A stretch of 64,000 nt of DNA from the human T2T-CHM13v2.0 reference genome, Homo sapiens. The notes below the pieces were generated by a model. It made no database searches and was not told where the DNA came from. It saw only the letters and a program-made list of their open reading frames with translations. Position numbers and translations under genes: made by a program. The stretch lies in NCBI RefSeq assembly GCF_009914755.1, contig NC_060926.1; one strand, 5' to 3'. This document shows, piece by piece, positions 38,105-51,579 of this stretch; positions within the stretch are counted from its first letter, which is position 1; every line of letters starts with the position of its first letter.

Positions 38105-39979
38105 TTATAGAGTTATATGTGTTTCAATATTGTTATTATTATTATTATTATTATTATTATTTTCAAAGGCTTTTTCTGCATCTATTGAGATAATCATGTG
38201 GTTTTTGTCTTTGGCTCTGTTTATATGCTGGATTATATTTATTGATTTGCGTATATTGAACCAGCCTTGCATCCCAGGGATGAAGCCCACTTGATCATGG
38301 TGGATAAGCTTTTTGATGTGCTGCTGGATTCGTTTTGCCAGTATTTTATTGAGGATTTTTGCATCAATGTTCATCAAGGATATTGGTCGAAAATTCTCTT
38401 TTTTGGTTGTGTCTCTGCCCGGCTTTGGTATCAGGATGATGCTGGCCTCATAAAATGAGTTAGGGAGGATTCCCTCTTTTTCTATTAATTGGAATAGTTT
38501 CAGAAGGAATGGTACCAGTTCCTCCTTGTACCTCTGGTAGAATTCGGCTGTGAATCCATCTGGTCCTGGACTCTTTTTGGTTGGTAAGCTATTGATTATT
38601 GCCACAATTTCAGATCCTGTTATTGGTCTATTCAGAGATTCAACTTCTTCCTGGTTTAGTCTTGGGAGAGTGTATGTGTCGAGGAATTTATCCATTTCTT
38701 CTAGGTTTTCTAGTTTATTTGTGTAGAGGTGTTTGTAGTATTCTCTGATGGTAGTTTGTATTTCTGTGGGATCGGTGGTGATATCCCCTTTATCATTTTT
38801 TATTGTGTCTATTTGATTCTTCTCTCTTTTTTTCTTTATTAGTCTTGCTAGTGGTCTATCAATTTTGTTGATCCTTTCAAAAAACCAGCTCCTGGATTCA
38901 TTAATTTTTTGAAGGGTTTTTTGTGTCTCTGTTTCCTTCAGTTCTGCTCTGATTTTAGTTATTTCTTGCCTTCTGCTAGCTTTTGAATGTGTTTGCTCTT
39001 GCTTTTCTAGTTCTTTTAATTGTGATGTTAGGGTGTCAATTTTGGATCTTTCCTGCTTTCTCTTGTGGGCATTTAGTGCTATAAATTTCCCTCTACACAC
39101 TGCTTTGAATGCGTCCCAGAGATTCTGGTATGTTGTGTCTTTGTTCTCATTGGTTTCAAAGAACATCTTTATTTCTGCCTTCATTTCGTTATGTACCCAG
39201 TAGTCATTCAGGAGCAGGATGTTCAGTTTCCATGTAGTTGAGCGGTTTTGAGTGAGATTCTTAATCCTGAGTTCTAGTTTGATTGCACTGTGGTCTGAGA
39301 GATAGTTTGTTATAATCTCTGTTCTTTTACATTTGCTGAGGAGAGCTTTACTTCCAAGTATGTGGTCAATTTTGGAATAGGTGTGGTGCGGTGCTGAAAA
39401 AAATGTATATTCTGTTGATCTGGGGTGGAGAGTTCTGTAGATGTCTATTAGGTCTGCTTGGTGCAGAGCTGAGTTCAATTCCTGGGTATCCTTGTTGACT
39501 TTCTGTCTCGTTGATCTGTCTAATGTTGACAGTGGGGTGTTAAAGTCTCCCATTATTAATGTGTGGGAGTCTAAGTCTCTTTGTAGGTCACTCAGGACTT
39601 GCTTTATGAATCTGGGTGCTCCTGTATTGGGTGCATATATATTTAGGATAGTTAGCTCTTCTTGTTGAATTGATCCCTTTACCATTATGTAATGGCCTTC
39701 TTTGTCTCTTTTGATCTTTGTTGGTTTAAAGTCTGTGTTATCAGAGACTAGGATGGCAACCCCTGCCTTTTTTTGTTTTCCATTTGCTTGGTAGATCTTC
39801 CTCCATCCTTTTATTTTGAGCCTATGTGTGTCTCTGCACGTGAGATGGGTTTCCTGAATACAGCACACTGATGGGTCTTGACTCTTTATCCAATTTGCCA
39901 GTCTGTGTCTTTTAATTGGAGCGTTTAGTCCATTTACATTTAAAGTTAATATTGTTATGTGTGAATTTGATCCTGTCAT
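38105..39979 (-). pseudogene. L1 ORF2p N-terminal 624-aa open frame (complete APE-like endonuclease, linker, start of RT) running through the (AAT)n tail
   Basis: [19 protein letters not shown]...QETH...GDFN...SDH...KSPGPDG...ISIDAEKAF then poly-Asn; lacks the FADD motif and C-terminal domain. Confidence 0.9.
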
Positions 39980-41334
39980 TATGATGTTAGCTGGTGATTT
40001 TGCTCGTTAGTTGATGCAGTTTCTTCCTAGTCTCGATGGTCTTTACATTTTGGCTTGATTTTGCAGCGGCTGGTACCGGTTGTTCCTTTCCATGTTTAGC
40101 GCTTCCTTCAGGAGCTCTTTTAGGGCAGGCCTGGTGGTGACAAAATCTCTCAGCATTTGCTTGTCTGTAAAGTATTTTATTTCTCCTTCACTTATGAAGC
40201 TTAGTTTGTCTGGATATGAAATTCTGGGTTGAAAATTCTTTTCTTTAAGAATGTTGAATATTGGCCCCCACTCTCTTCTGGCTTGTAGGGTTTCTGCCCA
40301 GAGATCCGCTGTTAGTCTGATGGGCTTCCCTTTGAGGGTAATCCGACCTTTCTCTCTGGCTGCCCTTAACATTTTTTCCTTCATTTCAACTTTGGTGAAT
40401 CTGATAATTATGTGTCTTGGAGTTGCTCTTCTCGAGGAGTATCTCTGTGGCATTCTCTGTATTTCCTGAATCTGAACGTTGGCCTGCCTTGCTAGATTGG
40501 GGAAGTTCTCCTGGATAATATCCTGCAGAGTGTTTTCCAACTTGCTTCCATTCTCCCCATCACTTTCAGGTACACCAATCAGACGTAGATTTGGTCTTTT
40601 CACATAGTCCCATATTTCTTGGAGGCTTTGCTCATTTCTTTTTATTCTTTTTTCTCTAAACTTCCCTTCTCGCTTCATTTCATTCATTTCATCTTCCATC
40701 ACTGATACCCTTTCTTCCAGTTGATTGCATCGGCTCCTGAGGCTTCTGCATTCTTCACGTAGTTCTCGAGCCTTGGTTTTCAGCTCCATCAGCTCCTTTA
40801 AGCACTTCTCTGTATTGGTTATTCTAGTTATACATTCTTCTAAATTTTTTTCAAACTTTTCAACTTCTTTGCCTTTGGTTTGAATGTCCTCCCATAGCTC
40901 AGAGTAATTTGATCATCTGAAGCCTTCTTCTCTCAGCTCGTCAAAGTCATTCTCCATCCAGCTTTGTTCCGTTGCTGGTGAGGAACTGCGTTCCTTTGGA
41001 GGAGGAGAGAAGCTCTGTGTTTTAGAGTTTCCAGTTTTTCTGTTCTGTTTTTTCCCCATCTTTGTGGTTTTATCTACTTTTGGTCTTTGATGATGGTGAT
41101 GTACAGATGGGTTTTTGGTGTGGATGTCCTTTCTGTTTGTTAGTTTTCCTTCTAACAGACAGGACCCTCAGCTGCAGGTCTGTTGGAATACCCTGCCGTG
41201 TGAGGTGTCAGTGTGCCCCTGCTGGGGGGTGCCTCCCAGTTAGGCTGCTCGGGGGTCAGGGGTCAGGGACCCATTTGAGGAGGCAGTCTGCCCGTTCTCA
41301 GATCTCCAGCTGCGTGCTGGGAGAACCACTGCTC
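38141..41334 (-). mobile_element. Young L1PA2-like element truncated at both ends (starts ~nt 630 of the 5'UTR, ends early in RT), with (AAT)n tail and 16-bp TSD, inserted at a MIR tail
   Basis: Near-L1HS ORF1/ORF2 sequence; TSD caatatt[g/t]ttattatt at 38125-38140 and 41335-41350; short 5'UTR junction 'ggaataccctgccgtgtgagg' typical of L1PA3-and-younger elements. Confidence 0.93.
40043..41059 (-). pseudogene. L1 ORF1p, full 338-codon frame with a premature stop at codon 49 (CGA>TGA)
   Basis: ATG at 41059 (MGKKQNR); TGA at 40915-40913; the 248-aa ORF MELKTKAREL...NQAKM is in the same frame. Confidence 0.88.
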
Positions 41335-50000: not shown

Positions 50001-51579
50001 ATTTCAACTTTGGTGAATCTGACAATTATATGTCTTGGAGTTGCTCTTCTCGAGGAGTATCTCTGTGGCGTTCTCTGTATTTCCTGAATCTGAACGTTGG
50101 CCTGCCTTGCTAGATTGGGGAAGTTCTCCTGGATAATATCCTGCAGAGTGTTTTCCAACTTGCTTCCATTCTCCCCATCACTTTCAGGTACACCAATCAG
50201 ACGTAGATTTGGTCTTTTCACATAGTCCCATATTTCTTGGAGGCTTTGCTCATTTCTTTTTATTCTTTTTTCTCTAAACTTCCCTTCTCGCTTCATTTCA
50301 TTCATTTCATCTTCCATCGCTGATACCCATTCTTCCAGTTGATCGCATCGGCTCCTGAGGCTTCTGCATTCTTCACGTAGTTCTCGAGCCTTGGTTTTCA
50401 GCTCCATCAGCTCCTTTAAGCACTTCTCTGTATTGGTTATTCTAGTTATACATTCTTCTAAATTTTTTTCAAACTTTTCAACTTCTTTGCCTTTGGTTTG
50501 AATATCCTCCCGTAGCTCAGAGTAATTTGATCATCTGAAGCCTTCTTCTCTCAGCTCGTCAAAGTCATTCTCCATCCAGCTTTGTTCCGTTGCTGCGAGG
50601 AACTGCATTCCTTTGGAGGAGGAGAGGCGCTCTGCGTTTTAGAGTTTCCAGTTTTTCTGTTCTGTTTTTTCCCCATCTTTGTGGTTTTATCTACTTTTGG
50701 TCTTTGATGATGGTGATGTACAGATGGGTTTTTGGTGTGGATGTCCTTTCTGTTTGTTAGTTTTCCTTCTAACAGACAGGACCCTCAGCTGCAGGTCTGT
50801 TGGAATACCCTGCCGTGTGAGGTGTCAGTGTGCCCCTGCTGGGGGGTGCCTCCCAGTTAGGCTGCTCGGGGGTCAGGGGTCAGGGACCCACTTGAGGAGG
50901 CAGTCTGCCCGTTCTCAGATCTCCAGCTGCGTGCTGGGAGAACCACTGCTCTCTTCAAAGCTGTCAGACAGGGACATTTAAGTCTGCAGAGGTTACTGCT
51001 GTCTTTTTGTTTGTCTGTGCCCTTCCCCCAGAGGTGGAGCCTACAGAGGCAGGCAGGCCTCCTTGAGTTGTGGTGGGCTCCACCCAGTTCGAGCTTCCGG
51101 GCTGCTTTATTTACCTAAGCAAGCCTGGGCAATGGCGGGCGCCCCTCCCCCAGCCTCGCTGCCGCCTTGCAGTTTGATCTCAGACTGCTGTGCTAGCAAT
51201 CAGCGAGACTCCGTGGGTGTAGGACCCTCCGAGCCAGGTGCGGGATATAATCTCGTGGTGCGCCATTTTCTAAGCCGGTCCGAAAAGCGCAATATTCGGG
51301 TGGGAGTGACCCGATTTTCCAGGTGCTGTCCGTCACCCCTTTCTTTGACTCGGAAAGGGAACTCCCTGACCCCTTGCGCTTCCCAAGTGAGGCAATGCCT
51401 CGCCCTGCTTCGGCTCGCCCGTGCGCACCCACTGACCTGCGCCCACTGTCTTGCACTCCCTAGTGAGATGAACCCGGTACCTCAGATGGAAATGCAGAAA
51501 TCACCCGTCTTCTGCGTCGCTCACGCTGGGAGCTGTAGACCGGAGCTGTTCCTATTCGGCCATCTTGGCTCCTCTCCCC
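47069..51579 (-). mobile_element. L1PA2-like element with intact 5' and 3' ends but two internal deletions (~1.25 kb and ~0.36 kb)
   Basis: 5' end ggggagaggagccaagatggccgaatagg at 51579; 3'UTR with GAG (non-Ta) and 'cacaatgtgc'; poly(A) 47069-47104; junctions at 48688/48690 and 49787-49861. Confidence 0.95.

What the first reader, a model, noticed from the sequence alone, without database searches (positions are those of the whole stretch)
38141..51579. Two neighbouring L1PA2-like copies appear to share private variants, including the same ORF1 stop
Seen in both 38.1-41.3 kb and 47.1-51.6 kb: ORF1 ENGSKLEN and KGRITLKG (usual ENGTKLEN, KGRVTLKG), 'ggtcgaaaatt', 'atctctgtggc', 'caaacttttcaac', and the codon-49 TGA (40913-40915 and 50531-50533). 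They have the same orientation, lie ~6 kb apart and have separate junctions. The first retains the ORF1-end/endonuclease block that the second lost. Inference: same source RNA inserted twice locally, one complex event, or gene conversion between neighbours. Caveats: the stop is at a CpG and can recur, and the consensus is recalled from memory.
Basis: partly seen in the sequence, partly recalled or inferred. Interest (0 to 1): 0.7.

Follow-up and report, generated by a model that had tools for sequence, protein, structure and literature searches.

The report
Neighbouring L1 copies swapping DNA patches
Three young LINE-1 jumping-gene copies within 74 kb of human chromosome 2 share a pair of rare mutations that an exact whole-genome search finds only in these three, likely because two of them came from one now-missing parent on chromosome 11 and the neighbours later likely copied short DNA patches into each other.

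Summary
Copies A (38163-41334) and B (46834-51579) share rare alleles, and a third copy C, full-length with both ORFs open and 55 kb beyond B, shares others. The ORF1 pair 40545G+40342A matches only A, B and C in CHM13. Sharing is a mosaic (ABC, AB, AC, BC), while C carries lineage markers of another L1PA2 sub-branch. Descent alone does not explain that; local non-allelic gene conversion does.

A is tail-less, 3'-truncated and has its own 16-bp duplication, like an internally primed insertion.

Best reading (0.47): A and B are twin products of the lost chr11 source, later exchanging patches with C. Main rival (0.30): three independent insertions plus conversion. The shared ORF1 stop is weak evidence (CpG, 3 of 28 controls). 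Each mechanism is known; this combination was not found in print. Interest 0.5.

The parts
38163..41334 (-). Copy A: internal L1 fragment (about nt 631-3803 of a full-length copy), 5'- and 3'-truncated; ORF1 stop at codon 49; ORF2 open for 606 codons to the cut end
38125..38162 (-). A's 3' junction: (AAT)n run (38141-38162) and 3' copy of the 16-bp target duplication (38125-38140); no poly(A)
41335..41350 (-). 5' copy of A's target duplication, 15 of 16 bases identical to the 3' copy
45158..46830 (.). X: one copy of the 1,677-bp direct repeat flanking B; starts exactly after B's second A tract; found only here and at X' apart from a simple-repeat stretch
46834..47071 (-). 238-bp unique tag matching C11:100086094-100086335 (4 substitutions and a 4-bp gap); AATAAA at 46849-46854; short second A tract 46829-46835
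47072..47104 (-). B's own patterned poly(A) tail
47105..51579 (-). Copy B: L1 with intact 5' end and two internal deletions (about nt 1722-2978 and 4076-4425); ORF1 frameshifted by a 1-bp deletion near 50594
49788..49861 (-). 74-bp filler at B's first deletion, holding 7-9-nt snippets of the adjacent downstream L1 sequence (templated end-joining pattern; polymerase not identified)
48690..48694 (-). Junction of B's second deletion (about 350 bp lost)
51580..53255 (.). X': second copy of the 1,677-bp repeat; ends exactly at B's first base; 98.1% to X
40299..40915 (-). Shared ORF1 alleles in A: 40915T, 40856G, 40445G (with B); 40545G, 40342A (with B and C); 40299G (with C only)
39389..39755 (-). 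Alleles 39755C and 39389G shared by A and C (block deleted in B)
49189..49224 (-). Alleles in B: 49224T and 49220A shared with C only; 49189C shared with A only

Best explanation
Copies A, B and the outside neighbour C share rare alleles in a mosaic, likely because A and B arose together from one parent L1 that likely sat at a now-empty chr11 site, and the three neighbours then likely exchanged short patches by gene conversion. Shown: the anatomy, the allele sharing and its rarity, the empty chr11 site, C's different lineage markers and tail. Inferred steps: (1) a source L1 at C11:100086335 read through into 238 bp of flank; it was never fixed on the lineage to CHM13. (2) Its RNA was reverse-transcribed from a nick at the start of X; the second strand was resolved 1,677 bp away, duplicating X, and the copy lost two internal blocks then or later. 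(3) In the same episode a second staggered nick 6 kb away primed inside ORF2 at an A-rich stretch and gave tail-less A. (4) C, from another source, lay 55 kb away in inverted orientation. (5) Ectopic recombination among these 98%-identical neighbours moved patches of tens to hundreds of bases; direction is not resolved. Step 5 alone has a probability of about 0.85.
For: Haplotype 40545G+40342A: 3 exact matches in the genome, A, B, C. 49224T: 3 matches, B, C and one chr4 copy. 39755C+39389G: 3 matches, A, C and one chr8 copy. 40856G and 38389C: A and B, not C. All four sharing classes occur, so no single tree fits. C shares 290C, 301C, 463A, 492C, 1792C, 3011G with dispersed L007 where A or B differ, has its own short duplication and a different tail insert, and falls outside the A+B clade. 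No flank homology between the window 37-54 kb and C's 20 kb, so no segmental duplication. Tag maps only to chr11, starting at TTTT/AAAG, with no young L1 in 14 kb there. X/X' ends coincide with B's ends. Non-CpG divergences are alike: X/X' 23/1663, A-B 19/1849, A-C 26/1849, B-C 25/1849. A and B agree at 9 of 9 common non-CpG lineage sites that both cover in the 28-copy panel. A published conversion rate gives 7-10% of sites converted in 7-10 My, the same order as 6 shared of 34 rare derived sites.
Against: Conversion alone could also give the A-B sharing, so the common source for A is not required by sequence. A has no tag linking it to chr11. An ORF1 stop is unlikely in an active source (established cis requirement for ORF1p, recalled), so 40915T needs recurrence or conversion. 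No tract shows significantly lower divergence (Fisher p 0.46, 0.09, 0.52). A-C divergence over 1420-2769 is 1.44%, no lower than elsewhere, so transfers must be old. A and B differ at 38333/49133, a site that varies among copies. Dispersed kin pairs do share many rare alleles (1 of 378 pairs shares 10). Two old copies (L053, L060) among 27 other 40545G carriers also have 40342A, outside the exact pattern. Alu conversion is reported mainly within 10 kb, not 55-65 kb.
Confidence: 0.47

Rival explanations
1. A, B and C are three independent insertions, and all rare-allele sharing comes from later gene conversion between neighbours, strongest for the closest pair.
For: One mechanism covers every class; AB-only sharing (3-4 sites) exceeds AC-only and BC-only (1-2 each) as distance decay predicts. 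It explains the shared ORF1 stop. 5 of 6 A-B shared sites fall in 574 bp (p 0.12).
Against: It needs two structurally unusual insertions of the same sub-branch and orientation to land 6 kb apart by chance (inference). A matches B, not C, at 3011, 3151, 3159 and 3560.
Confidence: 0.3
2. B inserted full-length, gathered a few mutations, and A was later copied locally from B (DNA-templated repair of a staggered break, or priming on B's transcript) before B lost its middle; patches were also exchanged with C.
For: A-B divergence (1.03%) is lower than X/X' (1.38%). It explains the shared stop and the missing tail. A spans B's first deletion.
Against: The difference is not significant (p 0.35). A's 16-bp duplication and A-rich 3' end look like RNA priming, with no clear microhomology at the 5' junction.
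Confidence: 0.12
3. One source lineage inserted three times at this locus without any later exchange; discordant sites are recurrent mutations.
For: Three pairwise divergences and the X/X' clock are all near 1.0-1.4%; alleles shared with C are spread over 2 kb.
Against: C's 5'UTR and ORF2 lineage markers differ from B's and match L007. 49224T has only 3 carriers in the genome yet skips A. C's tail differs.
Confidence: 0.07
4. Chance recurrence or an assembly or polishing artefact mixed reads between the copies.
For: Not tested against a second assembly. Single alleles do recur (35 carriers of 40545G).
Against: 0 of 9 young other carriers of 40545G have 40342A. Two further random positions within 75 kb have p about 2e-9. 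Each copy keeps many private changes; in C the CpG made by a shared allele has since decayed (2575T).
Confidence: 0.03

Closest known systems
Non-allelic gene conversion between neighbouring Alu elements (Aleshin and Zhi 2010, seen only as cited in PMC8230782 passages and PMC6598467 parts 1-2) and between Y-chromosome LTRs
   Same: Mosaic sharing of non-diagnostic mutations among nearby copies, at odds with subfamily markers
   Different: Here 3-6-kb L1 copies, one pair 55-65 kb apart and inverted; the cited Alu range is about 10 kb
L1-mediated small tandem duplications, 'large TSDs' of 1-10 kb (bioRxiv 10.1101/2024.12.14.628481, passages; 10.1101/2024.08.27.596794, passages)
   Same: Poly(A) end at an endonuclease-like site with the duplication ending at the element's two ends
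   Different: Described in tumours and cell clones; this one is an old germline event in the reference with a transduced tag and a second insertion beside it
Partnered L1 3' transduction (PMC12350158, passages)
   Same: Unique sequence between two A tracts that maps to another chromosome
   Different: No L1 at the donor site in CHM13
Internal-priming insertions (Srikanta 2009, not held; defined through PMC5402677 passages)
   Same: Target duplication, no poly(A) tail, weak endonuclease motif
   Different: 3.2 kb long, next to a related copy
Synchronous L1 insertions in tumours (10.1101/2024.08.27.596794, passages; PMC13526784, passages)
   Same: Two insertion intermediates in one cell at one time
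   Different: There they swap ends and give translocations or inversions; here each copy keeps its own duplication in cis
Tandem L1HS array on chr11:94.1-94.3 Mb (10.64898/2026.05.14.725010, section 10)
   Same: Related L1 copies at one locus that break the one-site-one-insertion assumption
   Different: That is a head-to-tail array; A, B and C have separate junctions and unique spacers

Membership tests
L1PA2 | 3'UTR triplet neither ACA (Ta) nor ACG (pre-Ta) | tested here: met
   GAG in B and C; Ta and pre-Ta triplets from PMC12350158 passage; GAG as the older state is recalled. A lacks the region.
L1PA2 | About 900-nt 5'UTR without the 129-bp block of older L1PA3 | tested here: met
   ORF1 ATG about 904-906 nt from the start in B and C; the feature itself is recalled
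L1PA2 | Subfamily call against curated consensus set | not testable with these tools
   No RepeatMasker or Dfam library; 'L1PA2' is therefore a likely label
Partnered 3' transduction | Unique sequence between two A tracts, mapping elsewhere, with poly(A) signal | tested here: met
Partnered 3' transduction | Source L1 directly upstream of the tag at the donor site | tested here: not met
   Site is empty in CHM13 and reads TTTT/AAAG; filed as a candidate with absent source, not as a traced transduction
L1-mediated tandem duplication (large TSD) | Direct repeat whose ends coincide with both ends of the insertion | tested here: met
   X starts after the second A tract; X' ends at B's first base
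L1-mediated tandem duplication (large TSD) | Single copy of X in the pre-insertion allele | not testable with these tools
   No ape genomes held
Internal-priming insertion | Short target duplication with 3' truncation and no poly(A) | tested here: met
   16-bp duplication, end in ORF2, (AAT)n only; a decayed tail cannot be excluded
Non-allelic gene conversion | Mosaic sharing that conflicts with lineage markers | tested here: met
Non-allelic gene conversion | Tracts of reduced divergence | tested here: inconclusive
   0.68-1.0% in 1050-1665 vs 1.2-1.6% outside, not significant, window chosen after seeing the data
Non-allelic gene conversion | Converted and unconverted states across haplotypes or species | not testable with these tools
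   One genome only

The most novel reading that the evidence does not exclude
A single germline burst from one chr11 L1 hit this locus twice (possibly one RNA primed from two nicks 6 kb apart, in the same orientation), and its cDNA intermediates also overwrote patches of an intact resident L1 55 kb away. If such exchange over tens of kb is general, neighbouring young L1s evolve in concert, dead copies can feed alleles into intact ones, and SNV-based source tracing is biased by position.
Probability: 0.15. Interest if true: 0.75.

Novelty: new variant of a known kind. Interest (0 to 1): 0.5.

Why it matters
L1 phylogenies and source tracing assume each copy mutates on its own after insertion. 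Here copies of different sub-branches share rare alleles only with their neighbours, out to 55-65 kb, and one partner is an ORF-intact element. That makes a simple genome-wide test possible: does rare-allele sharing among L1PA2 copies decay with distance? The locus also records a germline case of the kb-scale target duplication known from tumours, and it predicts the exact position of a lost source L1 that apes may still carry. No effect on a gene or phenotype is shown.

Tried and rejected
Tandem or segmental duplication of A and B: rejected, separate junctions and no shared flanks. Segmental duplication or inversion linking C to A/B: no flank match in 20 kb around C. Large sub-lineage: rejected by counts. 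C as direct parent of B: B carries a chr11 tag and lacks C's lineage markers. Wider chr2 cluster (copies at 176.08, 174.90, 174.19 Mb ranked high): over the 1.1 kb fetched they lack 49224T and 38389C and are not in the 40545G list; the 176.08 Mb copy shares only likely ancestral or CpG states with C. Site 2769 as evidence against an A-B common source: dropped, because B's membership of that clade rests on site 301, which lies in a CpG context. Other offspring with the chr11 tag: none, 2 of 2 matches are B and chr11; tags under 60 bp would be missed. Tract tests were not significant. One search used a wrong gap length and was redone. A control panel for L1 nt 4426-6048 could not be obtained, so B-C sharing in the 3' part is untested. 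Literature: 9 searches ran; none listed a paper on this locus or on conversion between neighbouring young L1s; two searches returned 0. Three supplementary files of PMC12350158 held none of six coordinate prefixes. The supplements of PMC13192797 were too large to read and may list C or the chr11 source. Gilbert 2005 and Srikanta 2009 were not held.
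Full report
Names. A = window 38163-41334 (minus). B = 46834-51579 (minus). C = G000:C2:176248300-176254350 (plus), 54.7 kb beyond B's 5' end. Four-digit site numbers are positions in C; five-digit ones are window positions (mapping).

Check of the observation. The two overlaps are 98.4% over 1,091 bp and 98.1% over 828 bp. All motifs and the TGA are present. Identity alone says little: the best dispersed copy scores 1892 bits against A's ORF1 segment and B 1888. 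That search scored 40 of 3,856 candidates; 30 loci were fetched, giving 28 dispersed controls besides A and C. They were chosen for likeness to A, so they lean towards sharing A's alleles. Exact pattern counts are whole-genome: 40545G 35 of 3,977, 40856G 7, 38389C 12. Only A and B are in all three lists. In a tree of 31 sequences and 1,273 non-CpG columns A and B are sisters at 90%. The stop is a CpG transition found in 3 of 28 controls and lies out of frame in B, whose ORF1 has an earlier 1-bp deletion.

Anatomy of B. B has an intact 5' end and covers L1 nt 4-1721, 2979-4075 and 4426-6048. The first deletion holds a 74-bp filler with 7-9-nt snippets of the downstream side. After the poly(A) come 238 bp of unique DNA, an AATAAA and a short second A tract. 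This tag matches only C11:100086094-100086335, with 4 substitutions and a 4-bp gap. The chr11 match begins at TTTT/AAAG, the endonuclease consensus, and the 14 kb fetched there holds no young L1. I infer a source element that inserted at this site and is absent from CHM13. B is flanked by a 1,677-bp direct repeat, X and X', whose ends coincide with B's two ends. This fits the 1-10 kb 'large TSD' class described for tumours and cell clones (10.1101/2024.12.14.628481, passages).

Anatomy of A. A covers nt 631-3803, ends at an A-rich stretch of ORF2, has an (AAT)n run instead of a poly(A), and sits in a 16-bp duplication matching at 15 bases. The nick site fits the endonuclease consensus only loosely. 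These are the features given for internal priming (PMC5402677, passages).

The third copy. C surfaced as the only control sharing 40545G and 40342A. A two-anchor pattern for both alleles has exactly three matches in the genome: A, B, C. Of the 32 other 40545G carriers 27 were fetched; none of the 9 young ones has 40342A, while 2 old ones (8% and 17% diverged) do, outside the exact pattern. C is full-length with open ORF1 (338 aa) and ORF2 (1,275 aa), its own short duplication, and an 11-nt insert between two A tracts unlike B's tag.

The mosaic. ABC: 1420G, 1623A. AB: 1050T (CpG), 1109G, 1520G (3 of 28 controls), 3576C. AC: 1666G, 3632A (2 of 6 controls), and 2210C and 2576G where B is deleted. 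BC: 3541T with 3545A (CpG). 3541T has 3 exact matches in the genome (B, C, chr4); 2210C+2576G has 3 (A, C, chr8). For nt 3230-4075 only 6 controls were available, chosen for likeness to B. Among 378 dispersed pairs 346 share no rare non-CpG allele, 26 share one, 6 share two or more (maximum 10); A-B share 3, A-C 5, B-C 2, and B shares none with any of the 28. So kin pairs exist across chromosomes; the oddity is that these three are neighbours. C meanwhile shares 290C, 301C, 463A, 492C, 1792C and 3011G with dispersed L007, where A or B carry other states, and groups away from A+B. A copy of another sub-branch that shares rare alleles only with its neighbours, in interleaved patches, points to local transfer.

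Timing. Non-CpG divergence: X/X' 23/1663 (1.38%), A-B 19/1849 (1.03%), A-C 26/1849, B-C 25/1849; differences are not significant. With human-chimpanzee non-CpG divergence near 1% (recalled), B likely predates that split, so the chr11 source may survive in an ape by lineage sorting (inference). No tract is significantly less diverged, so most transfers are old. The rate in 10.1101/135152 (abstract only), 2.5e-7 per base per generation with 250-bp tracts, gives 7-10% of sites over 7-10 My at 25 years per generation. Observed: 6 of 34 rare derived sites in the three-way overlap are shared. The order of magnitude fits, though that rate was measured on gene duplicates.

Mechanism. Most likely (0.47): one episode from the chr11 source made B (priming at the start of X, resolution 1.7 kb away) and A (internal priming at a second nick), followed by conversion among A, B and C. 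The joint origin rests on anatomy (two unusual insertions, same orientation, 5.7 kb apart, B's first deletion nested in A's span) and on matching lineage states; it is an inference, since A has no tag. The simpler rival (0.30) drops the joint origin and lets conversion do everything. A later local copy of B (0.12), three sibling insertions without exchange (0.07) and artefact (0.03) follow. Conversion figures in the first three.

Comparison with what is known. Conversion between neighbouring Alus within about 10 kb and mosaic LTRs are described (PMC8230782 passages; PMC6598467 parts 1-2 of 4). Large target duplications, synchronous insertions and transductions are described (passages only). 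Nine searches listed nothing on this locus or on conversion among neighbouring young L1s; most subscription papers are not searched and the supplements of PMC13192797 could not be read.

Verdict. Real, not chance, and richer than reported, but built from known processes with no shown function. New variant of a known kind; interest 0.5.

Noticed in passing
G000:C2:176248300-176254350 (L041-L042): Copy C is a full-length L1PA2-like element with both ORFs open despite about 2% divergence from its relatives.
   Followed up: partly
G000:C11:100086335 (L033, L043): Empty endonuclease-consensus site predicted to have held the source of B. From memory it lies in an intron of CNTN5; not checked.
   Followed up: partly
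L020 (C13:48378127) and L022 (C11:75678668): Two dispersed copies share 8-10 rare alleles: likely parent and daughter or siblings.
   Followed up: no
window 14718-21471 and 55516-61969: Two older plus-strand L1s, 86-90% identical to each other and 84-88% to A and B; no sign of special kinship was looked for beyond one 180-bp stretch.
   Followed up: no
window about 41365-41405: A tandem duplication of about 19 bp just outside A's 5' target duplication; may belong to the same repair episode.
   Followed up: no
G000:C2:176079202-176080298 (L076): Another young L1 about 100 kb from A; shares 3159G, 3560A, 3632A and two CpG changes with C but none of the rare A/B alleles tested.
   Followed up: partly
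G000:C8:60586748 and G000:C4:69844352: The only other exact carriers of 2210C+2576G and of 3541T; not fetched, probably recurrent.
   Followed up: no
whole window: From memory this stretch lies in the gene desert centromeric to the HOXD cluster; not checked with any call.
   Followed up: no
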